Of a stretch of 51,705 bases of DNA, positions 10,613 to 19,531 are shown piece after piece. The DNA comes from a virus (Duplodnaviria > Caudoviricetes), in IMG/VR virus record IMGVR_UViG_3300048834_000253, positions 1 to 51,705 of that record. The stretch is one strand, 5' to 3'. The notes below the pieces were generated by a model, which did no database searches, was not told where the DNA came from, and was given only the letters and a program-made list of their open reading frames with translations. Each line of letters opens with the position of its first letter. Position 1 is the first letter of the stretch. The position numbers and the translations under genes were made by a program.

Positions 10613-13600
10613 TTAGTTTGCCGATTTCTCCATCTCCATCACCTTGTCATTGAGCGCCCGCATGTAGGTCGTTCTCGCCGCGTCAATGCGCTTGAGGGCT
10701 TCCTTGTCGTTGATGCTCTCTGACGCCAGCTTGTTGAGCTTGGTGACATTGCTGCGCACCTCGTCGTTCAGCTCGTACAGCTTCACCAGCGGGTTATCGT
10801 CAATCAGCTTGCGCACCTCATCGCCCCGGCCCTCTTTGGACAGGCCCTTGAGCTGCGCTTCCAGCTTCTCGATCTTGCTGGAGTTCTTGAAGAACCGGCT
10901 GCGCTGCAGGTCTTGGTCTTCCACCTCGCCAGCGAATCGACTCCCCAGCGGAACCTCGCGCGCCTTCAGGCCTTCGCCCTGGGCGGTCAGCACCGATGCG
11001 TTCAGGATCTTTTCCAGCTCCCGGAACACGCCACCGCCCACCGTGGTGAAGACGTAGCGCACCTCTTCGGGTGAAGGGCTGGCAAGCCCTTGGGCAAAGT
11101 CGTTCCCACCAGTCAGGCTGTTGATGGCCTTGCTGATGCCGATGTACGCCTGGCCGGTGAACGACCGCTGCGTGCCCTCGCGGCCCATGGTGAAGCCGGG
11201 CCGGGTGTCCCACGGCATGCGCTCCTTACCGATGGGCTTGCCGGTAAAGTCCGTATTGGTGGCCATATCCACGATGGGATCAATCACAGTGGGCGAGATC
11301 GTCTTGAGCGCGCCTGCTCCAGTGAAGATGTTGCCGCCACCCAGGGGGTTGAACGACCCCGCCAGCTCGCCCAAGGCGTTAAAAGACTTCTCGCCCCAAT
11401 CCTTGCCACCGCTCATCAGCAATTCGGTGACCACGCGCCCGGTGTTGGGCAGCGCATTCAGGCCGAACTGCAACGGGATGGTGATGTACTGCTTGCCAGC
11501 CAGAGGAATGATGAAGGCGCGGGCCTTGACGAACTCGGGGATTTCATCGTCCTCATACCCGGCCATGGACAGCAGCAGCGCCTGAATCACGCCCAGGCTC
11601 AGGCCGCCGATCAAAATGCGCTTGCCCGCAGGCCCTTGCAGCGCCTTGAGCGTGCGCGCCGTCCCCTGCACCGATGCGTTGAAGAAGGCGAACAGCGGCC
11701 CCATCTCGCGCCCTGCCCGCCCCTTGCGGTTGAAGTCCAGCGTCAGCTCGCGCGCCATCCGGGCAGACTCGGCGCGGCTCATGCCCTTGTCCAGTGCAGC
11801 CTTGTACGCTGACAGACGCACACCGTTTTCCAACGTGGTGTTGAAGTCGTCCAGCAGGTCCAGCACCGCATGGGCAGCAGCGCCCGGCGTCAGCTTGCCA
11901 TCCTTACCCAACTTGTCCAATTCACTCTGCACGGCGTCGGCTCGCTTGTACGGGTCAATGAACAAATCGCGGTAGCCCGTGCGTCCGCCATCGTCCTGGA
12001 ACTGCTGCCACAGGTCCGACCATGGCGTGCGCTGCGCATCGCCCCTCAAGTCCCGCGCGATGCCAATCATTGCGGGGATGGAGTCGGACAGCACCCGCGC
12101 CTGTTTTCCGGCCAGGGCGGTGTCGGTCAGGTTGACCATCGCGCCGCCCACATCCCGCACGATGTTGACCATGCCGAATGCCGGGTTGTACTGCGTGTTG
12201 ATCGATGCAAAGTAGCGCGTGGCCTTGCCCACGATGCTGCCAGCCAGATCAAGCTGCCCCAGCACTCCATCCTGATTCTTCAGGTTGCGCACCAGTCGCA
12301 CCGCCCGCTCGTTGCTGGCGTTGAACAGAATCACACGATCCTCGCCGTTGACCTTGACCACCAGCGAATTGTCCAGCCGCTTGTACATTGGGTTGGGCCG
12401 GTCAACCACCTTGCCAGATACCGGCTCAACCCCGCGAATCGTGGGCACGCCCTGCATGCCTACCTCGGCTTCCATGGGGTCAACGCCCATCCTGACCAGT
12501 TCGTTCGCAATCTGGTCAGACGGCATGGATGGCCGAATGGTCGTCCACATTTCAGCGTTGGGGTTCGTCAGCGCCAGGCCGTACAGGCTCATGGCCACGC
12601 GGTTCTTTTCCGCCCGGGTAATGGCGGCTTCGCGCTGCATCAGGATGTGCGCCAGCATGTTGGTCACTTCGCCCGTGCTGCCGGTGGCCCGCTTGGATGC
12701 CGTCCCCGTCACGCTTACACCGGCCCCGATGGGGTGGCCCGGGGTTTCCATGGCCTCATCCTTGAACAGCGGCACGTAATGCTTGTACGCACCCGTCCAG
12801 GCGTCCACTGTCTCTTGCTTCTCCAGGCCCTCACGCACCAGCACTTCGCGTGTGCCCAGTGTCAAATCATCGACCCGCTTTGCCAGCAGCTCCAGCACCA
12901 GGCGCTTGCCCTGCGTCAGCGCTGCAATGTGGTCGCGCGCTGCTTGCGTGGTCATAAGCACGCCCTGGCTGTTGGTGCCTGCGCCGCCATCGGGCATCTC
13001 GTCGTTCACCTTGGCAATCTGCGCGTTGCGCTCGGGGGCGTGCCGGGCCAGCAGGTAATCCGACAGCTCATCCTGGCTGACGTTGTTCTTGGCCATCGAC
13101 TCCAGCAACGGCTTCACCTCGGCCGACAGGAACGACTCAGTGCGCCGCGCGATGCGTCCAGGCATCAGCGTTTCCGCCAGCCGGGCATCAAACCCTTCGG
13201 TGATCTGCTTGCCAGTCGCTGCAATAGCCTCTTGCACGCGCTTGAGGTCGATTCGCCCATCCTGCAGTTCGTAGATCAGCTTGTCGGTGCGGGTCGCTTG
13301 GGGAAGCTCCCACGGGTTGGAAGGGGCGAACAGGCCCGCTTGCGCGTTTGTGGGGATGGGGGGTGGGTTGTTGCCCGCTTTGCTGTAGAGCAGCCCAGGC
13401 ACATCCGTGCCCGCATGGTCGCGGGTAATCAGTGCGCGTTTGAGGGTTGAGACTCCGACTCCATGCGCCTCAAAGCCTCCGCGAGTGCTGGCGAGATAAC
13501 GTGCAAGTTCGGAATCCGACAGGCGATTGCCCTGAATGGCGGCTCCATTGCCCACGGCGTCAGCGTCTCGGGCTGGTGTGCCCACAACATCTTGTTCACG

Positions 13601-16600
13601 CCCGTCAAATCGTCGTGGATTTTTCTTGCCTGCTGCAAGTCGCATTTCAAGTTCTGCGAGATTACCAGCGCCGATTCCTCCCGATTCATTTGCACCAATT
13701 CGGCCATCCACGGGTGCGCCGTCGCCCAGTCTTTGCCCCTCTGGCTCCAGTACGGTGCCGCCTCTGGAGTAAACGTCCCCCGTGGCGGGGTCAATTTCAA
13801 GGAATTTGAATACAGGGATGCGCTCATTTACTTTCTCCAGTTCGGCTTGTGCGTAATTCAGCCATCCAGCACCCCGCGCCATACTCCGCGCATTGGCCCG
13901 TGCCACCGCAGCAATGTCGGCCACGGTCAGTTGGTCAGCCTTCAGCAGCACGCCCTTGCCAAACAACCATGCGCGCACAGCAGCCGTGAAGTCCTGCACC
14001 CACTTGGCTACCGATGGCGGCGAATTGGCGCGGTCGTTCTCGTACTCGGTGACGATGTAAGCCGCAGCTTCTTCACCGCTGGTTTCGCCCGAACGATCCA
14101 TGCGCGCCTGCACCCGCTGGATGAAGGCATTGCCACGGTCAGCACTCAGCAACTGAGCAGCCCGTTCAAACAGCGGCTGCAGCTTGCTGTCTGCGGCCAT
14201 GTGAATGCCCACCTCGTGCATCAGCGTGCCCGGTGCGGACTCGGCGGTCAGGTTGTCGGCAATCAGGAATGATTGGCCGGTCTGCGGGTCGAAAAAGCCC
14301 TCTATGGCGCCGTCTGCGCTGCGCTTGATGTCAAGGCTGTCTGCTGTGTCGCTTTGCGTGGCTGACAAAAGCGACTGCCTGATCGCCTCAGCATCCCCTC
14401 CCGTCTTGTCCGCCCTGGCCCGCGCTGCCGCCTCAATCGCCTGCTCCTGCGTCTGCGTCAGCGTGACAAGGCCCTTGGCTTCCAGCTGGCCCAGCAGCTT
14501 GCCGTAAGCCTTGGTGATAGCGGCGCGGATGGCGGCGGCGGGGGTGCGCATGGGTTGCACGGTGCGACTCATGGCAGCGCCTGCAGGCTTGATGCTGCTG
14601 GGCACCGCCTCGTCCACCAGGTACTGCAACGCCTGGCGCTTGGTGTCGAACCGGGTGTCGCCCCAAGGCTCGCCATCCTTGCCAAAGCGCGTCAGTTGCC
14701 AACGGCCTTGCTCACTGGCCGAAGGCGTCACGATCAACATGCGCCCATCGCTTGTGCGCGCCTCGACGGCAAACCCGCTGTCTGGTAGTTGGGCCAGCGC
14801 GTCCAGCATGGCAGCTTCTGCCGCCCGTCTGGCGTCGCCCACAGCGCTGAACTCTTCCGGGGTGACAGTGCCCGGCTCGGCGTCGTAAAGCGCATCTGCC
14901 CTGCGGCTAGCCTCTTCCATGGCGGCTGCTGCACTGCTGATGGCAGGTTGGGCGCGGCTGAAGCGCACATCGCCATTGCGCGCATTAAAGCGCTGACTCA
15001 GCGGGATCACTGCACCGTCATCATCGTGCGTCACGGCATCCAGCAGTTTGCGGTTGTTCTTGGTGTTCTTGTAGCCGTAGCTCTGTCCGTCGTCATAGCC
15101 GAACTCGGCCACGCTGTTGCCGTCCCAGTACAAGTTCTTGGCGGAGGCTGGGAGCGAAATGATGCGGTATCCACCAGGTATGCTTTCCCCTTCCAACTTG
15201 GCGTACTCAAGGGACGGGGTCACCCAGTCGCCATTGCGAATGGCGCCATCCTTCACGGTTTTGGGGATGGCCCGGTACACCACCATGGCCACCGAACCCG
15301 GGCTCTTGCCTGCCGCCTTGCGCGCATCCGCTGAGCGCATGGCAGCCACCACAGCGCGGTGCGCCGCGGCTTCTTCGGGCGTGCTCACGTACCACTGCGG
15401 GTGCGTCCAGTAATCATCAGGCACAAGCCCGTTGTCACGCAGCTCATCCAGCCGGACGCCATCGTTTTCTGCGCTGGGCGCTTCGTGCTGCATGCGGTAA
15501 TCGCTGCCCACGTATCCCGCCTCGGCAGCAGCCTCATTCACCAATCGCTGCGCAGTAGCCATATCGCCGCGCTCTACAGCGGCAAGGTACTCAGCATCCT
15601 TGTTGGGCTTCGCCTTCCGGCTGAACATCAGCCCGCCCTGCCCGCGATCCGCCATCGTGGCGTTGTACAGCGCAATCGCTTTCTGATTGATCTTGTCGAA
15701 TGCGACGTGCTCCAGCATCTCAGTGGGCGCGCGCTCAATTGACGTGGTGCCACGCGAGCGAATCACAGAGTAAAGCTGCGCGCCGATCCTGTCGCCGCCG
15801 AAGTCCTCTACGGTGACGATGTACTCTCCGCTGGCGTAACGCGCGTATGGCGTAGCCTCTTGGCGTTTGGTCATATCGCTCTTGACCATCTCGCGGGCGA
15901 TCACCTTGCCGGACGCGGGAAGTTGCGCCTCTTGCTGTCGTGCAGGCGCATCAAACATGCCGCCCTGCCCAGTCAGGCTATCCAGCGGGTCTTGCCCCAA
16001 CTCGAACTCATCAGCGGCGCGCACGCTGGCCTGGGCAATGCGCTTGCGGTCTTCGTCCTTCGATGCTTGCACGTCGGCAGCGCGCTTGGCTGCGGCTTCT
16101 GCCTTGGCGGCCTGCTCTTGCGATTCTTGGAGTGCCGCTGCTTCTGCGGGCGTTTGTGATGCCAGCTCCAGCGGTTCAGGCGCTACGTTTTCAGTAGCTG
16201 CTTGCGCTTGCTGGTCAAGCGCTACGGGCTGATTTAACCCTTGGGCTGCGGGGCCTGTTGCTGCTCCGCTTTGGCTTTGGCCTTCGCTGCCAGCAGGCGT
16301 GCGACGATCTCCATTGCTTCGGGTGATGGCTGTCTCAAGGGCGGATTTTGCGGCTGCATAGTAGTCCTGCTCGGTTGCGTTGATGGTCTGCTCATGGGCG
16401 TCGAGCATGATGGATTCGGCGTCGATGCCCAGCGCATTCGCCATTTCAAGCAATGCGCGCACCTCGGCCTTGATGGCGTCTGGTGCTGCATCGTACCCGC
16501 TGGATTCGAGCATGTCATCCGAGAAATCATCCAGTGCGACAGGTTGCGTATCGCTCCATGGGTCGCCATCGGATGCCGATTCTTCCTGCGCTGCAAGGTA

Positions 16601-19531
16601 GTCATCAAACTGGGCATTGGCTTCTGCTTGTGCAATTCGTTCAATGCCGTCTGCTGTGTACTGCGGGCGGGATATGCTCGTCTTGATGAGGGCATACGCA
16701 TCATTGAGCGTTGCGCCTTCCCCCAAATAGCCGTCAGCGATCAGCTTTTGGGTTGCCTGCTCCATCGACAAGCCACGGCCACGGCCCGCGAACAGGCGCC
16801 GGTTGCCAACGCGCGGGTTGTTGTCAATGCCCAGATCGGATGCCGCGATGGCGCTCAACCCGCCTTCTGCCGCGATGAACTCGTGCGCGGCCAGTGGGGC
16901 GCCTGCCGTGCCGGTTTTGGGCTGCGACAGTCGGCGTGCAGCTTTTGCCTCTGCTGCCAGTTGCGCGGGCGTTTTCTCGGCCAGGGCATACCCGCCTTCG
17001 ACCGGCACCACACGCATCATGGGCTGCAGCTTCTTGGCGTCGCCTGCTGCTTTGCGGGTCTTGAAGGGCTTCCCGCCTTCGCTCAGCGGCGTCTGTTCGC
17101 GCCCCAAGCGCACAGACGCCGCTATCGGCTGGCCCGCAGCTTGCGCCGCTCCTTGCGCGCTTGGCGTTTGGCTTGCTTGCGTTCCAGGTTGCGCAGGTTG
17201 GGGCACATTGGCGGGGACTCCTTGGGCGGTGGGCGGGCTGCTGAGACTGGCCAAATGCTGACCAATGGGGACAGCCTCGTATTTGGCAGTGTTGATTTTG
17301 TCGGCCACGGATTTTTGCGATGTTTCCATCACGACTGCCCCCGTGGATTTATCGCGAAGCACCCAGCTTGTCGCTGGTTGGCGCGTGGCGGGGTCGATGA
17401 CGGGCGCTGCACCTACCCCAGCGGCTTGAGTTGCGGCAACTCCCGCACCGGAAAGGTCGGCGGCAGGTACTGGCGCATTAACTCCCGCGACGTCAGCCGC
17501 TTGGGCACTGGTGGCTTTGGTCTGCTGCTGGGTGTCCGATGGCGTGCGTTGTGGTGCATTTGCTGCCTCCTGGGGTGAAGATCGGGCGCGCAAGGCTTGC
17601 AACTCGGCGGCCAGCCCGCCGGTCACCGGAACACTGCCGGGCTGCGCCTGTGGCGTGGTGCTTCGCTGAGTGAAGTCAGGCGCGCTGCGCGCACGCAGGG
17701 CCTCCAGTTCGACGGCAAGCCCGGTCGCTTGTGGTTGTGCTGCCTCGGCCTGCAGGATCTGGGCGGCAACATCGGTCTGGGCAGACTGCGGCGACTGGGG
17801 TGCAACCGGGGCCGACGGGACAATAGGGGCTTGGGGCGTCGTGGGTTGGTCTTCCACGCGCGGCGCCCGGCTGCCATACGCTTCCTGCATGCCAGCCACC
17901 TTGCCCATCACCAGACCGGCAGCCGCACCCTGCCCGTAGGCCTCGCCAGCCATCTCGGATAGATTGACCCGCTGGCCTGCGCGCGACAGTTCCAGACCCT
18001 TGGCAATCGCGCCGGTGCCCTCTTCGACGCCTTCCGACACAGACTCCAATGCACCCGCCTGGCTGCCCTTGACGATCAATTCGACCGCCTTGGAAACCAA
18101 CCCGCCCTCCATCCCCTTGCCCATGGGGCGCGTCAGCAGGGATGTGGACGCCACGGCAGCCTTTGCGGCCGCGCCCTTGAGCGACGGGGGCAAGAACATT
18201 TTTTCAATGGCATCACCGCCAGGAACCAGCTTCATCGACAGCACCGACGCGCCCGTAGCCATCAGCAGCGCCCGGTTCGCCGCAGCGCCCGCCAAAATCT
18301 CCTTGGCCTGCTGCGCGCCGTGCTGTGCCTCCAGGTCCTTCCATTCGGGCTCTGACTTGAACGCCTCCACCGGGAGCTTGCTCAGTTCCTCGTAGGTTTC
18401 GCTCGCCACCGATGCGCCCTGAATACCCGCAGCCGTACCCGTGGCCGTGGCGCGCGCCAGCACCCCGGCGCCATTCTTGGCCGTCACTGCAACGCGCGCT
18501 GCCAGCTCAGACCCCGTGCCCAGCGCCTTGGCAAACGCGGCATTACCAACCGCATTGGCTGCAGCACCCGCACCACGACCGACCACGCCCCCCGCAAACA
18601 TGCCCGGCGCACTGCGCGCCAGCGTGTCAAACAACAGCGTCGGGTCTTTCAGCGTCTCAATGCCGCCGACTGCCAGCTTTTCGCGCCACCCCTCGGCGGT
18701 ACTCAGTTTGTCCTGCAGGGCTTTCCCCCGCGCCTGAATCTCGGATGATTTCTGGTCTTGCAGGACGTCCTGCGTGCCACGGATGGCCTTCAGGTAGCCC
18801 GTGTCCCAATCGCCCGTCACTGCGGAATAGGCCACGCCCGGCAGGCTGCCAACATCCAGCAGGCCCTGCGCCAGCGATTTGGTGGTGTCTCCAAACGCCT
18901 CCCCCCATGTGCGCTCAGGGGTCGCCCCCGGCTGCGCCTTCGCCGCCTCGGGCGCTGCTGCATTCTTGGGCGGCAGCTCTACAGGCGGCATGGGCGCAGG
19001 CGCGCGCAACTTCAACTCGTCGGCCGCTGCAAACACGGTCTTGAGATAGCCCTGGGTTTCCTTGGGCGCGAGCGATTGCCAATCCTCGGCGTCGTAGGCC
19101 TTGCGGTTTTCGCCCCAGTTGTAGGCCGCCACAGCCTTGCCGTAGTCGCCGCCGAACTTCTCCAGATTAGCGCGCATGTAGGCCGCAGCCCCGAAAATGC
19201 TCTCCACCGGGTCCAGCGGATTGATGCCAAAGCGCTCGGCCGTGCCGGGCATGAACTGCATCAAGCCTGCTGCACCAGTGCGGCTCTTGACCTGGCCGCT
19301 GATCACGTCGGGGCGAAACCGGCTTTCGGCAAACGCCATGGCCCGCAGCACGTCGGGGTCAACCCCGTATTCATCACCAGCCGCCTGAAAAGCTGCGTCG
19401 AACTCCTGGGGAACGGCAAAGCGCGAACCTGCTGGCGCTGGCTCAAACGCCAAAGGCTCCCGCTCAGGTGCCGATTCATCCGGCAGGGCGTCAAGGTCGA
19501 TGCCGCGAGAGGCAAGCTGGAAGAGATTCAT
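10613..19531 (-). CDS. Giant polyvalent internal-virion/ejection protein, 2972 aa (SLT, ART-like, zincin, LPD38-like)
   Basis: AESRF..GAAGLMQFMPGTA..AAYNWG (SLT); YRA..WVTPS..EFGYD (ART-like); MHEVGIH..EEAAAY (HExxH-type); DFNRKG..FFNASVQG..IPL.FG C-terminus (LPD38-like). Confidence 0.9.
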   Translation of the reverse strand: MNLFQLASRGIDLDALPDESAPEREPLAFEPAPAGSRFAVPQEFDAAFQAAGDEYGVDPDVLRAMAFAESRFRPDVISGQVKSRTGAAGLMQFMPGTAERFGINPLDPVESIFGAAAYMRANLEKFGGDYGKAVAAYNWGENRKAYDAEDWQSLAPKETQGYLKTVFAAADELKLRAPAPMPPVELPPKNAAAPEAAKAQPGATPERTWGEAFGDTTKSLAQGLLDVGSLPGVAYSAVTGDWDTGYLKAIRGTQDVLQDQKSSEIQARGKALQDKLSTAEGWREKLAVGGIETLKDPTLLFDTLARSAPGMFAGGVVGRGAGAAANAVGNAAFAKALGTGSELAARVAVTAKNGAGVLARATATGTAAGIQGASVASETYEELSKLPVEAFKSEPEWKDLEAQHGAQQAKEILAGAAANRALLMATGASVLSMKLVPGGDAIEKMFLPPSLKGAAAKAAVASTSLLTRPMGKGMEGGLVSKAVELIVKGSQAGALESVSEGVEEGTGAIAKGLELSRAGQRVNLSEMAGEAYGQGAAAGLVMGKVAGMQEAYGSRAPRVEDQPTTPQAPIVPSAPVAPQSPQSAQTDVAAQILQAEAAQPQATGLAVELEALRARSAPDFTQRSTTPQAQPGSVPVTGGLAAELQALRARSSPQEAANAPQRTPSDTQQQTKATSAQAADVAGVNAPVPAADLSGAGVAATQAAGVGAAPVIDPATRQPATSWVLRDKSTGAVVMETSQKSVADKINTAKYEAVPIGQHLASLSSPPTAQGVPANVPQPAQPGTQASQTPSAQGAAQAAGQPIAASVRLGREQTPLSEGGKPFKTRKAAGDAKKLQPMMRVVPVEGGYALAEKTPAQLAAEAKAARRLSQPKTGTAGAPLAAHEFIAAEGGLSAIAASDLGIDNNPRVGNRRLFAGRGRGLSMEQATQKLIADGYLGEGATLNDAYALIKTSISRPQYTADGIERIAQAEANAQFDDYLAAQEESASDGDPWSDTQPVALDDFSDDMLESSGYDAAPDAIKAEVRALLEMANALGIDAESIMLDAHEQTINATEQDYYAAAKSALETAITRSNGDRRTPAGSEGQSQSGAATGPAAQGLNQPVALDQQAQAATENVAPEPLELASQTPAEAAALQESQEQAAKAEAAAKRAADVQASKDEDRKRIAQASVRAADEFELGQDPLDSLTGQGGMFDAPARQQEAQLPASGKVIAREMVKSDMTKRQEATPYARYASGEYIVTVEDFGGDRIGAQLYSVIRSRGTTSIERAPTEMLEHVAFDKINQKAIALYNATMADRGQGGLMFSRKAKPNKDAEYLAAVERGDMATAQRLVNEAAAEAGYVGSDYRMQHEAPSAENDGVRLDELRDNGLVPDDYWTHPQWYVSTPEEAAAHRAVVAAMRSADARKAAGKSPGSVAMVVYRAIPKTVKDGAIRNGDWVTPSLEYAKLEGESIPGGYRIISLPASAKNLYWDGNSVAEFGYDDGQSYGYKNTKNNRKLLDAVTHDDDGAVIPLSQRFNARNGDVRFSRAQPAISSAAAAMEEASRRADALYDAEPGTVTPEEFSAVGDARRAAEAAMLDALAQLPDSGFAVEARTSDGRMLIVTPSASEQGRWQLTRFGKDGEPWGDTRFDTKRQALQYLVDEAVPSSIKPAGAAMSRTVQPMRTPAAAIRAAITKAYGKLLGQLEAKGLVTLTQTQEQAIEAAARARADKTGGDAEAIRQSLLSATQSDTADSLDIKRSADGAIEGFFDPQTGQSFLIADNLTAESAPGTLMHEVGIHMAADSKLQPLFERAAQLLSADRGNAFIQRVQARMDRSGETSGEEAAAYIVTEYENDRANSPPSVAKWVQDFTAAVRAWLFGKGVLLKADQLTVADIAAVARANARSMARGAGWLNYAQAELEKVNERIPVFKFLEIDPATGDVYSRGGTVLEPEGQRLGDGAPVDGRIGANESGGIGAGNLAELEMRLAAGKKNPRRFDGREQDVVGTPARDADAVGNGAAIQGNRLSDSELARYLASTRGGFEAHGVGVSTLKRALITRDHAGTDVPGLLYSKAGNNPPPIPTNAQAGLFAPSNPWELPQATRTDKLIYELQDGRIDLKRVQEAIAATGKQITEGFDARLAETLMPGRIARRTESFLSAEVKPLLESMAKNNVSQDELSDYLLARHAPERNAQIAKVNDEMPDGGAGTNSQGVLMTTQAARDHIAALTQGKRLVLELLAKRVDDLTLGTREVLVREGLEKQETVDAWTGAYKHYVPLFKDEAMETPGHPIGAGVSVTGTASKRATGSTGEVTNMLAHILMQREAAITRAEKNRVAMSLYGLALTNPNAEMWTTIRPSMPSDQIANELVRMGVDPMEAEVGMQGVPTIRGVEPVSGKVVDRPNPMYKRLDNSLVVKVNGEDRVILFNASNERAVRLVRNLKNQDGVLGQLDLAGSIVGKATRYFASINTQYNPAFGMVNIVRDVGGAMVNLTDTALAGKQARVLSDSIPAMIGIARDLRGDAQRTPWSDLWQQFQDDGGRTGYRDLFIDPYKRADAVQSELDKLGKDGKLTPGAAAHAVLDLLDDFNTTLENGVRLSAYKAALDKGMSRAESARMARELTLDFNRKGRAGREMGPLFAFFNASVQGTARTLKALQGPAGKRILIGGLSLGVIQALLLSMAGYEDDEIPEFVKARAFIIPLAGKQYITIPLQFGLNALPNTGRVVTELLMSGGKDWGEKSFNALGELAGSFNPLGGGNIFTGAGALKTISPTVIDPIVDMATNTDFTGKPIGKERMPWDTRPGFTMGREGTQRSFTGQAYIGISKAINSLTGGNDFAQGLASPSPEEVRYVFTTVGGGVFRELEKILNASVLTAQGEGLKAREVPLGSRFAGEVEDQDLQRSRFFKNSSKIEKLEAQLKGLSKEGRGDEVRKLIDDNPLVKLYELNDEVRSNVTKLNKLASESINDKEALKRIDAARTTYMRALNDKVMEMEKSAN
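13429..13827 (-). CDS. Nested +1-frame ORF, 132 aa, inside the giant gene
   Basis: GGAG-7 nt-ATG. The host frame loses its GC3 bias here (AGA, CGA, GGA, AAT codons). Confidence 0.55.
   Translation of the reverse strand: MSASLYSNSLKLTPPRGTFTPEAAPYWSQRGKDWATAHPWMAELVQMNREESALVISQNLKCDLQQARKIHDDLTGVNKMLWAHQPETLTPWAMEPPFRAIACRIPNLHVISPALAEALRRMESESQPSNAH
16234..16359 (-). CDS. Nested +1-frame ORF, 41 aa (MQPQNPPLRQPSPEAMEIVARLLAAKAKAKAEQQQAPQPKG)
   Basis: AGGA-5 nt-ATG in a low-complexity linker of the giant gene. Confidence 0.4.
   Translation of the reverse strand: MQPQNPPLRQPSPEAMEIVARLLAAKAKAKAEQQQAPQPKG
17122..17208 (-). CDS. Nested +1-frame ORF, 28 aa, basic (MCPNLRNLERKQAKRQARKERRKLRASR)
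   Basis: AAGGAG-9 nt-ATG. Uses preferred codons CTG/CGC/AAG. Confidence 0.5.
   Translation of the reverse strand: MCPNLRNLERKQAKRQARKERRKLRASR
17413..17559 (-). CDS. Nested +1-frame ORF, 48 aa (MHHNARHRTPSSRPKPPVPKRLTSRELMRQYLPPTFPVRELPQLKPLG)
   Basis: Perfect AGGAGG-6 nt-ATG. Confidence 0.45.
   Translation of the reverse strand: MHHNARHRTPSSRPKPPVPKRLTSRELMRQYLPPTFPVRELPQLKPLG

What the first reader, a model, noticed from the sequence alone, without database searches (positions are those of the whole stretch)
16234..17559. Series of SD-led micro-ORFs, all in the same +1 frame, in the giant protein's linkers
Seen: starts at 17559 (AGGAGG, 48 aa), 17208 (AAGGAG, 28 aa, Arg/Lys-rich) and 16359 (AGGA, 41 aa) share the frame of the 13827 ORF. 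Each uses an A/T-ending host codon (AAT-G or TAT-G) that is disfavoured in this GC-rich genome. Inference: the disordered linkers double as a hidden small-protein operon. The 28-mer resembles arginine-rich nucleic-acid-binding peptides (N-like or DNA-condensing). Caveat: CAG-GAG codon pairs create SD-like words by chance.
Basis: partly seen in the sequence, partly recalled or inferred. Interest (0 to 1): 0.78.

Follow-up and report, generated by a model that had tools for sequence, protein, structure and literature searches.

The report
One real hidden gene, two unproven
Of three tiny out-of-frame reading frames inside a phage's giant virion-protein gene, one (41 codons) is a conserved gene-within-a-gene for a small basic helical protein, and the other two have no comparative support.

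Summary
All three +1-frame micro-ORFs exist as described. "Same frame" is trivial: the giant gene has 76 ATGs in frame +1 and 6 in +2, because NAT|G codon pairs are favoured genome-wide.

The 41-codon ORF (16237-16359, minus strand) is a real nested gene. All 31 distinct sequences examined carry a +1 ORF directly behind the same ~250-aa domain. The +1 peptide is better conserved than the host frame in 184 of 190 pairs; control segments give 0 of 105 and 0 of 171. Host third positions are the least variable. Host-synonymous resampling drops +1 similarity from 0.296 to 0.092. The product is a basic protein with one amphipathic helix and matches no Pfam or PHROG family.

The 48-mer and 28-mer lie in linkers absent from domain relatives. 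The 28-mer straddles a mosaic junction, and its Arg/Lys richness follows from NCG and CAA host codons. Their strong-SD count (2 against 0.3-0.45 expected) is borderline. DNA of close relatives was unreachable, so they are unproven but not excluded.

Earlier notes of this scan report nested genes in polyvalent genes on other DNA.

The parts
10613..19531 (-). Host gene: 2,972-aa polyvalent virion protein, with SLT at the N-terminus and LPD38 near the C-terminus
16361..17110 (-). Conserved ~250-aa domain of the host protein (residues 808-1057) that always precedes the nested gene. No Pfam family, fold not recognised
   Evidence: 45-78% aa identity in 26 relatives. AF2 pLDDT 78.5. No PDB match by sequence or by Foldseek
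16365..16368 (-). Weak Shine-Dalgarno-like AGGA, 5 nt before ATG 16359
   Evidence: An SD-like word of 4 nt or more stands before the nearest ATG in 16 of 28 sequences
16237..16359 (-). Nested gene in frame +1 of the host: 41 codons for a small basic protein (Pro-rich N-terminus, amphipathic helix, basic tail)
16255..16323 (-). Codons 13-35 of the nested gene: predicted alpha-helix and the best conserved core of the family
   Evidence: AF2 on alignment A2, pLDDT 81.9, helix 13-35. Alignments
16234..16236 (-). Stop codon (TAA) of the nested gene. In most relatives the stop is a TGA made by the host's conserved Leu-Thr pair, so the stop is not independent evidence
17413..17559 (-). 48-codon +1 ORF behind AGGAGG (17566-17571). 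Function not supported
17122..17208 (-). 28-codon Arg/Lys-rich +1 ORF behind AAGGAG (17218-17223). Function not supported. It straddles a mosaic junction of the host protein

Best explanation
One of the three micro-ORFs is a real gene. The 41-codon ORF at 16237-16359 (minus strand) is nested one base out of step in the giant virion-protein gene, in the low-complexity spacer directly behind a conserved ~250-aa domain (residues 808-1057). Shown: selection acts on the +1 reading of this stretch, and the host reading there is only kept open. Inferred: ribosomes start at the internal ATG on the giant gene's late mRNA, helped by a weak AGGA. They make a small basic protein with a Pro/Lys-rich head, one ~23-residue amphipathic helix and a basic tail. 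Because domain and nested ORF always travel together in these mosaic genes, the product most likely works with that domain as a partner, chaperone or inhibitor. This last step is a guess with only weak computational support. The 48-mer and 28-mer are most likely by-products: Gln/Glu/Gly/Ala-rich linkers make SD-like words, NAT|G pairs make ATGs, and stop-poor +1 frames follow from the host amino acids. Some unselected initiation at their strong SD+ATG signals is possible.
For: A +1 ORF of the same family follows the domain in 28 of 31 distinct sequences (window plus 30 loci). The other 3 carry a variant basic helical +1 ORF. On 20 sequences kept after removing those more than 93% identical, normalised BLOSUM62 scores over the last 120 nt are 0.296 for +1, 0.177 for frame 0 and 0.165 for +2. 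The +1 score exceeds frame 0 in 184 of 190 pairs. Two domain control segments give 0 of 105 and 0 of 171, and the downstream segment 55 of 190. Residue-shuffle z-scores are 75 for +1 and 34 for frame 0. In a gapless 20-codon core, nucleotide diversity by +1 codon position is 0.437, 0.305 and 0.508, so host position 3 is the least variable. The domain control gives host positions 0.183, 0.154 and 0.400. In the bootstrap, +1 position 3 was never as low as position 2, and host position 3 is the most variable in only 2 of 20 codons. Host-synonymous resampling lowers the +1 score from 0.296 to 0.092 +/- 0.008. In three control segments it falls only from 0.26-0.39 to 0.21-0.27. An ATG lies between the last +1 stop and the core in 28 of 28 sequences. 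Host-frame insertions add a second +1 helix of the same pattern in L003-L006 and L038. The profile finds 27 called small proteins and 7 longer ones in the 5.8-billion-protein set. Near-identical population variants agree. Upstream of 16359, 11 of 15 shown changes are at host position 3, and changes there are radical in +1, including loss of the ATG at 16617. Inside the 41-mer, the 2 core changes are +1-synonymous. AF2 gives pLDDT 81.9 with a helix at residues 13-35. Domain plus peptide complex: weak support, score 0.39 against a best of 3 controls of 0.00. The runs agree in at least 84% of contacts and the partner pLDDT is at least 63. The mark was reached by 58 of 80 solved complexes and 2 of 110 mismatches, but at 0.60 or under by only 7 of those 80 and by both mismatches. 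The tool rates such a pass as more often wrong than right unless the pairing was likely beforehand. For the by-product reading of the other two ORFs.
Against: There is no expression evidence: the laid runs were contigs only. The SD is weak, and an SD-like word is absent before the nearest ATG in 12 of 28 relatives. Openness of the +1 frame is expected by chance (95%), and its stop is made by a conserved host motif. The loci were found through the domain, so 'always together' is partly a result of the search design. No cultured phage holds the module. Some points count against dismissing the other two ORFs. All 3 shown population variants in the 28-mer are host-nonsynonymous and +1-synonymous, while 6 of 7 in the 17227-17339 stretch next to it are at host position 3. 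Its AAGGAG uses GGA, which is 9% of Gly codons. Weak SD+ATG+ORF sites are about 2-3 times commoner than in shuffles. Real genes of this phage use AAGGAG(G)-type SDs.
Confidence: 0.72

Rival explanations
1. All three micro-ORFs, and perhaps more, are functional. The linkers of the giant gene then hold a set of small overlapping genes.
For: One of the three is real, which raises the prior for the others. SD (4 nt or more)+ATG+ORF (25 aa or more) sites number 11 against 3.4-4.8 in shuffles, and 6 of them cluster in 16200-17900. The density is 1.23 per kb against 0.25 per kb in 22 other genes. All 3 shown variants in the 28-mer are +1-synonymous and host-nonsynonymous. The 28-mer's SD needs a rare GGA codon, with a joint probability of 0.012 given the host residues. 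Strong AAGGAG(G) SDs mark real genes of this phage.
Against: The linker is absent in L010 and L035 and in viral contigs. The 28-mer's last ~6 codons and stop lie beyond the point where P0002-P0008 switch to another domain. The 48-mer has one near-identical 50%-identity cluster (two sequences, one of them the window's own) among 1.84 billion representatives. Their single difference is host-synonymous and changes the +1 residue from V to A. Pro/Ala/Ser/Thr interchange in linkers gives host first-position changes without any +1 selection. The three 28-mer variants are linked on one or two haplotypes. The strong-SD count is borderline and uncorrected.
Confidence: 0.1
2. None of the ORFs is translated. 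The +1 conservation at 16237-16359 would then reflect a constraint on the nucleic acid (a recombination joint between modules, or an RNA structure) or an artefact of low-complexity composition.
For: The stretch is a module boundary in a mosaic gene. The +1 translation of Gly/Gln/Ser/Glu-rich sequence is inevitably Ala/Lys/Pro-rich. There is no expression data, and the SD is weak or absent in 12 of 28 relatives.
Against: Variation is three-periodic in the phase of frame +1 (0.437, 0.305, 0.508), which is not expected for a DNA or RNA element. Replacements are conservative in +1 and radical in frame 0 (listing). Composition-preserving residue shuffles give 0.058 against 0.296 observed. Insertions are whole extra helices in frame +1. 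A start codon is kept in 28 of 28 sequences even where its position moves.
Confidence: 0.08
3. The +1 peptide is not made from its own start. Instead it is the alternative C-terminal tail of a truncated ~1,100-aa giant protein produced by programmed frameshifting into frame +1.
For: In the window the +1 frame is open for 156 codons upstream, so a shift anywhere there would reach the conserved helix. Phage structural genes are known to use frameshifting (own knowledge).
Against: In several relatives a +1 stop lies only 6-13 codons before the ATG (L001, L002, L003, L004, L024, L031, L037). That leaves a very short window for a shift. The 28 upstream sequences printed share no slippery motif by eye. 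The shift would have to be +1 or -2, both rare. A start codon is kept in 28 of 28.
Confidence: 0.06

Closest known systems
Rz1 inside Rz of phage lambda (embedded spanin genes); named from own knowledge, not from a call
   Same: A small same-strand gene lies wholly inside a larger phage gene in the +1 frame and has its own start. The product is short and Pro-rich at one end.
   Different: The 41-mer has no Cys, lipobox or signal peptide (sequence). The host gene is a virion polyvalent protein, not an i-spanin, and the site is not in the lysis cassette. There is no sequence relation.
phiX174-type overprinted genes (E in D, B in A, K); from own knowledge, with overviews seen only as search listings and abstracts (PMC8227390, PMC7017920)
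   Same: A new protein is overprinted on an existing frame. The overprinted stretch is compositionally biased and disordered in one of the two frames.
   Different: Here the host is a 52-kb dsDNA tailed phage that is not short of coding space. The overlap sits in a spacer of a modular giant gene and moves with one module.
Nested small genes in polyvalent-protein genes noted earlier by this scan on other DNA (e1-6259352, e1-6005703, e1-5925340, e1-6037981, and the tnpV cases). These are unchecked AI notes.
   Same: +1-frame small ORFs lie in linkers of giant polyvalent genes, often right behind one domain, and are read as partner genes.
   Different: No sequence likeness to this family was on record. 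This family is a single basic helix of about 40-70 aa, and some members have 2-3 helices.
Polyvalent proteins of phages and conjugative elements (Iyer et al. 2017, PMC5512222; passages read by term search)
   Same: The host gene fits this class, with SLT plus LPD38. [quoted passage not shown]
   Different: The main text has 0 occurrences of 'overlapping', and its uses of 'nested' and 'embedded' concern protein folds and peptidase domains. No gene-in-gene is described.

Membership tests
Same-strand nested (out-of-frame) overlapping gene | The ORF lies wholly inside another gene, on the same strand and in another frame | tested here: met
   16234..16359 lies inside 10613..19531 in frame +1
Same-strand nested (out-of-frame) overlapping gene | Both frames are kept open in relatives | tested here: met
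   The host frame is open through the stretch in all loci, and a +1 ORF is present in 31 of 31 distinct sequences, 3 of them a variant. Openness alone is expected by chance.
Same-strand nested (out-of-frame) overlapping gene | Purifying selection acts on the nested frame beyond the by-product of host conservation | tested here: met
Same-strand nested (out-of-frame) overlapping gene | The nested gene has its own start codon and ribosome-binding site | tested here: inconclusive
   ATG is present in 28 of 28, but an SD-like word of 4 nt or more only in 16 of 28
Same-strand nested (out-of-frame) overlapping gene | The product is made in infected cells | not testable with these tools
   Only contigs could be laid, which cannot show expression
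Rz1-type o-spanin | Signal peptide with a lipobox Cys, nested in or next to an i-spanin gene of the lysis cassette | tested here: not met
   The 41-mer has no Cys and the host gene is an SLT/LPD38 virion protein
Arginine-rich-motif peptide (lambda N-like), claimed for the 28-mer | A conserved arginine-rich peptide kept in relatives | tested here: not met
   The ORF crosses a mosaic junction, so its end is not shared by P0002-P0008. The linker is absent in L010 and L035. The basic residues follow from host NCG and CAA codons (direct reading).
Arginine-rich-motif peptide (lambda N-like), claimed for the 28-mer | A cognate RNA hairpin target (boxB-like) | not tested
   No search was made
Programmed ribosomal frameshift product | A conserved slippery site before the shifted frame | tested here: not met
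   No shared slippery motif by eye in the 28 upstream sequences. +1 stops lie 6-13 codons before the ATG in several relatives.
Any Pfam-A or PHROG family, for the 41-mer family | A significant profile match | tested here: not met
   26 members were scanned. The best E-values were 0.039 (Pfam) and 0.0071 (PHROG), each in at most 4 members.

The most novel reading that the evidence does not exclude
Giant polyvalent virion proteins are built from recombination modules that each carry their own hidden partner gene. Here a ~250-aa domain of unknown fold and a nested 40-70-aa basic helical protein form one inseparable unit, and the small protein binds and controls that domain, as chaperone or antidote, during virion assembly or after ejection. 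On this reading the 28-mer and 48-mer could be younger, lineage-specific overprints of the same kind.
Probability: 0.25. Interest if true: 0.8.

Novelty: new variant of a known kind. Interest (0 to 1): 0.6.

Why it matters
Gene callers forbid long same-strand overlaps, so a gene like this is left out of annotation. Here the called copies turned up only on metagenome contigs whose context I could not fetch. If small partner proteins are routinely written into the spacers of polyvalent virion genes, two things follow. Phage proteomes are under-counted, and the 'disordered linkers' of these proteins are under double constraint. The module-plus-nested-gene layout would then give a way to pair domains of unknown function with their regulators. 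The case also carries a caution. SD+ATG+open-frame triplets in GC-rich linkers are common by-products, and only comparative evidence separated the real gene from its two look-alikes.

Tried and rejected
Several searches led nowhere.
- blastn and tblastn of the region and of the domain against GenBank phages gave no match.
- The linker (residues 603-706) was not found in viral contigs. It was also not matched within the larger query.
- The linker protein was not found in the genomes behind L035-L039 (0 of 5). In 401 genomes of the family of G001 there were only two marginal hits at E about 7e-4.
- The 13827-ORF region had no homologue in 4 related virus records, and L023 is not held. That ORF, a separate finding, was therefore not evaluated.
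- The peptide profile A2 in viral contigs gave only 2 loci, both already known, because confirmation uses the 41-aa first row.
- P0055 was not found in viral contigs.
- The ESM Atlas gave no usable hit for P0023.
- The domain model had no Foldseek match in PDB at E of 0.001 or better, and the profile found no PDB sequence match better than E 0.013.
- A promoter-like site (16518-16490, minus strand, 9 of 12) was seen, but its conservation was not tested.

The read-laying run showed only 40 of 171 differences, and none of those shown lies in 17413-17559. The 48-mer could therefore not be judged from it. Parts without cover say nothing.

Readings I rejected:
- 'Same frame' as evidence.
- 'Open frame' as evidence.
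- The +1 stop as evidence, because it is made by the host Leu-Thr pair.
- The upstream 115 codons of the 156-codon +1 ORF as part of the gene. Relatives have stops there, and near-identical variants change it radically.

Supplementary files of papers were not opened.
Full report
WHAT IS THERE. The window is a complete 51.7-kb phage genome. Its largest gene is 10613..19531 on the minus strand and encodes a 2,972-aa protein. That protein has an N-terminal SLT lytic transglycosylase and a C-terminal LPD38 domain, so it is a phage-type polyvalent virion protein.
- ATG 17559, 48 aa, with AGGAGG 6 nt upstream.
- ATG 17208, 28 aa, with AAGGAG 9 nt upstream.
- ATG 16359, 41 aa, with AGGA 5 nt upstream.
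All three are in frame +1 of the giant gene.

IS IT MORE THAN CHANCE.
- A +1-frame ATG can only arise from a NAT|G codon pair. The gene has 76 of these and only 6 ATGs in frame +2, so a shared frame is automatic.
- AAT is 38% of Asn codons, and NAT is 46% of NAY codons before G. The same context preference holds in 16 other genes of the phage, at 38% before G against 12% before A. Only TAT is rare, at 16% of Tyr codons.
- Given the host amino acids, the +1 frame stays open over the 28-mer, 41-mer and 48-mer in 100%, 95% and 17% of synonymous resamplings.

Shuffles nevertheless show an excess.
- ATGs preceded by an SD-like word of 4 nt or more and followed by 25 or more open codons number 11. 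Shuffles give 3.4 +/- 1.7 (0 of 1000 reach 11), or 4.8 +/- 1.8 when junction dinucleotides are kept (1 of 200 reaches it).
- The two 6-nt SDs compare with 0.29-0.45 expected, and 2.3-6.5% of shuffles reach the observed count.
- Twenty-two other genes have 0.25 such sites per kb, against 1.23 per kb in the giant gene.
The statistics alone therefore leave the question open.

THE 41-MER IS A CONSERVED GENE. Searches with the host protein found relatives in viral, metagenome and genome contigs: 30 distinct loci, among them Burkholderiales MAGs and an Acidovorax prophage. They share 45-78% aa identity over residues ~808-1057. That stretch is thus a conserved domain and not a linker. The spacer after it aligns poorly in the host frame and has indels.

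Read in frame +1, however, every relative has a small ORF at that spot. A common family is present in 28 of 31 distinct sequences. It has a Pro/Lys-rich head, a conserved core of the type P-S-P-[EQ]-A-x-E-hydrophobic-hydrophobic-A-[KR]-hydrophobic-hydrophobic, and a basic tail. L025, L039 and L040 carry a variant basic helical ORF.

Quantitative tests on 20 sequences, kept after dropping those more than 93% identical, all point the same way.
- Over the last 120 nt, the mean normalised BLOSUM62 score is 0.296 in +1, 0.177 in frame 0 and 0.165 in +2. The +1 score exceeds frame 0 in 184 of 190 pairs. In two domain segments it never does (0 of 105, 0 of 171), and downstream it does in 55 of 190.
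- Composition cannot explain this. Residue-shuffled peptides score 0.058.
- In a gapless 20-codon core, nucleotide diversity is 0.437, 0.305 and 0.508 at +1 codon positions 1, 2 and 3. The host's third position is therefore the least variable, where an ordinary domain segment shows 0.183, 0.154 and 0.400. In the bootstrap, +1 position 3 was never as low as position 2, and host position 3 is the most variable in only 2 of 20 codons.
- Redrawing host-synonymous codons lowers +1 similarity from 0.296 to 0.092 +/- 0.008. In three control segments the drop is only from 0.26-0.39 to 0.21-0.27.
- L025 against L039, the variant family, gives 0.311 in +1 against 0.078 in frame 0. The two pairs with L040 are weak in every frame.

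Further features support a gene.
- An ATG lies between the last +1 stop and the core in 28 of 28 sequences. Where the usual site is lost, as in L035 and L037, another ATG lies a few codons upstream.
- Host-frame insertions in L003-L006 and L038 add a second helix of the same pattern in frame +1.
- Near-identical variants in four metagenome runs agree. Upstream of 16359, 11 of 15 shown changes fall on host third positions, and changes there alter the +1 reading radically, including loss of the ATG at 16617. Just beyond the 156-codon ORF's upstream end a variant creates a +1 stop at 16724. Inside the 41-mer, the two changes in the core are +1-synonymous and host-nonsynonymous.

The conserved unit therefore starts at 16359, not at 16704.

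WHAT THE PRODUCT IS. The profile of 26 peptides matches no Pfam or PHROG family. It does find 27 small and 7 longer called proteins in the 5.8-billion-protein set. Some carry two or three helix modules. Five of the longer ones are 138-140-aa forms with an ordinary-looking C-terminal half.

AlphaFold2 on the alignment gives one helix at residues 13-35 with pLDDT 81.9. The preceding domain folds with pLDDT 78.5 but resembles nothing in PDB.

A complex prediction of domain plus peptide gave weak support. The score was 0.39 against a best of 3 controls of 0.00, with at least 84% contact agreement between runs and a partner pLDDT of at least 63. The mark was reached by 58 of 80 solved complexes and 2 of 110 mismatches, but at 0.60 or under by only 7 of those 80 and by both mismatches. 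The tool rates such a pass as more often wrong than right unless the pairing was likely beforehand.

My reading is as follows. The ORF starts internally on the late mRNA and gives a small basic amphipathic-helix protein that works with the domain it is welded to. The start mode and the partner role are inferred, not shown. Frameshifting is unlikely. In several relatives +1 stops lie 6-13 codons before the ATG, and no common slippery site is visible.

THE 48-MER AND 28-MER.
- Their linker is replaced by unrelated sequence in the closest domain relatives, L010 (75%) and L035 (59%). It is absent from viral contigs.
- Seven proteins (P0002-P0008) share the linker at 61-93% aa identity. They lack the small domain at residues 707-765. 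That deletion form is also seen as a 179- or 180-nt joint in three runs.
- In six of these proteins the host sequence switches to another domain after '...QG' near residue 794-797, and P0006 diverges earlier. That point is inside the 28-mer, so its end and stop are not shared.
- The 28-mer's Arg and Lys come from host xCG and CAA/CAG codons, by direct reading.
- The 48-mer has a single 50%-identity cluster among 1.84 billion representatives, holding two sequences. One is the window's own peptide. The other differs by one host-synonymous change that turns V into A in frame +1.

Some observations point the other way.
- The three shown variants in the 28-mer are all host-nonsynonymous and +1-synonymous, while 6 of 7 in the 17227-17339 stretch next to it are at host third positions. 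They are linked on one or two haplotypes, and Thr/Ala and Pro/Ser swaps are what a Pro/Ala/Ser/Thr linker does anyway.
- The 28-mer's SD needs a rare GGA codon.
- Real genes of this phage use AAGGAG(G)-type SDs, so some initiation is plausible.
I put the chance that either ORF is a selected gene at about 0.2. The DNA of the close relatives would settle it.

COMPARISON AND NOVELTY. The layout is that of embedded same-strand phage genes such as Rz1 in Rz, or E in D of phiX174 (own knowledge). The product is not a spanin: it has no Cys and no signal peptide. I found no paper that joins polyvalent proteins with nested or overlapping genes. I made two full-text searches, and the founding paper has 0 occurrences of 'overlapping'. 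Supplements were not seen. Earlier unchecked notes of this scan report nested partner genes in polyvalent genes on other DNA, but nothing with this sequence. I class it as a new variant of a known kind.

VERDICT. One real, unannotated nested gene family has been found. The two look-alikes remain unproven. Interest is 0.6.

Noticed in passing
window 17233-17412 (host residues ~707-765): A small conserved domain (phrog_25603, E 4.9e-11) is present in the window. It is cleanly missing in relatives P0002-P0008 and in contigs of 3 runs (joint 17232/17233 to 17413, skipping 179-180 nt with 5-6 other letters between). It is a presence/absence module inside the linker.
   Followed up: partly
window ~17590-17730 (host residues ~603-650): The linker holds two copies of a helix-like motif, G-L-A-x-E-L-x-A-L-R-A-R-S. 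It is conserved at about 90% in P0002-P0009, so part of this 'linker' is probably a functional short motif.
   Followed up: no
window 17623-17877 (minus strand): A further 84-codon +1 ORF follows AGGA (5-nt spacer) and is Arg/Pro-rich. Synonymous resampling leaves it open in 64% of trials.
   Followed up: partly
window 16490-16518 (minus strand): A sigma-70-like promoter match (ATGACA-17-TACGAT, 9 of 12) lies about 130 nt upstream of the nested gene's ATG. There is 1 site against 0.1 expected in shuffles. Conservation was not checked.
   Followed up: no
whole window, all genes: NAT codons are strongly preferred before G and avoided before A (46% against 11% in the giant gene, 38% against 12% in 16 other genes). 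This codon-context bias inflates +1-frame ATG counts by about a third over plain synonymous shuffles (76 against 55.8).
   Followed up: yes
proteins P0054-P0058 (138-140 aa) and P0023-P0026, P0052, P0053 (111-120 aa): Longer members of the peptide family exist. Some have 2-3 tandem helix modules. Five clusters carry the helix module at the N-terminus followed by about 80 residues of ordinary, non-repetitive sequence. These may be free-standing genes, but their context could not be fetched.
   Followed up: partly
L025, L039, L040 (+1 frame behind the domain): Three relatives carry a different basic helical +1 peptide at the same spot. For L025 against L039 it is far better conserved in +1 (0.311) than in the host frame (0.078).
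   Followed up: partly
window 13429-13827 (minus strand): The 132-codon +1 ORF named in the finding is a separate first-reader note. No homologue of that part of the giant protein was found in 4 related virus records, so it could not be judged here.
   Followed up: partly
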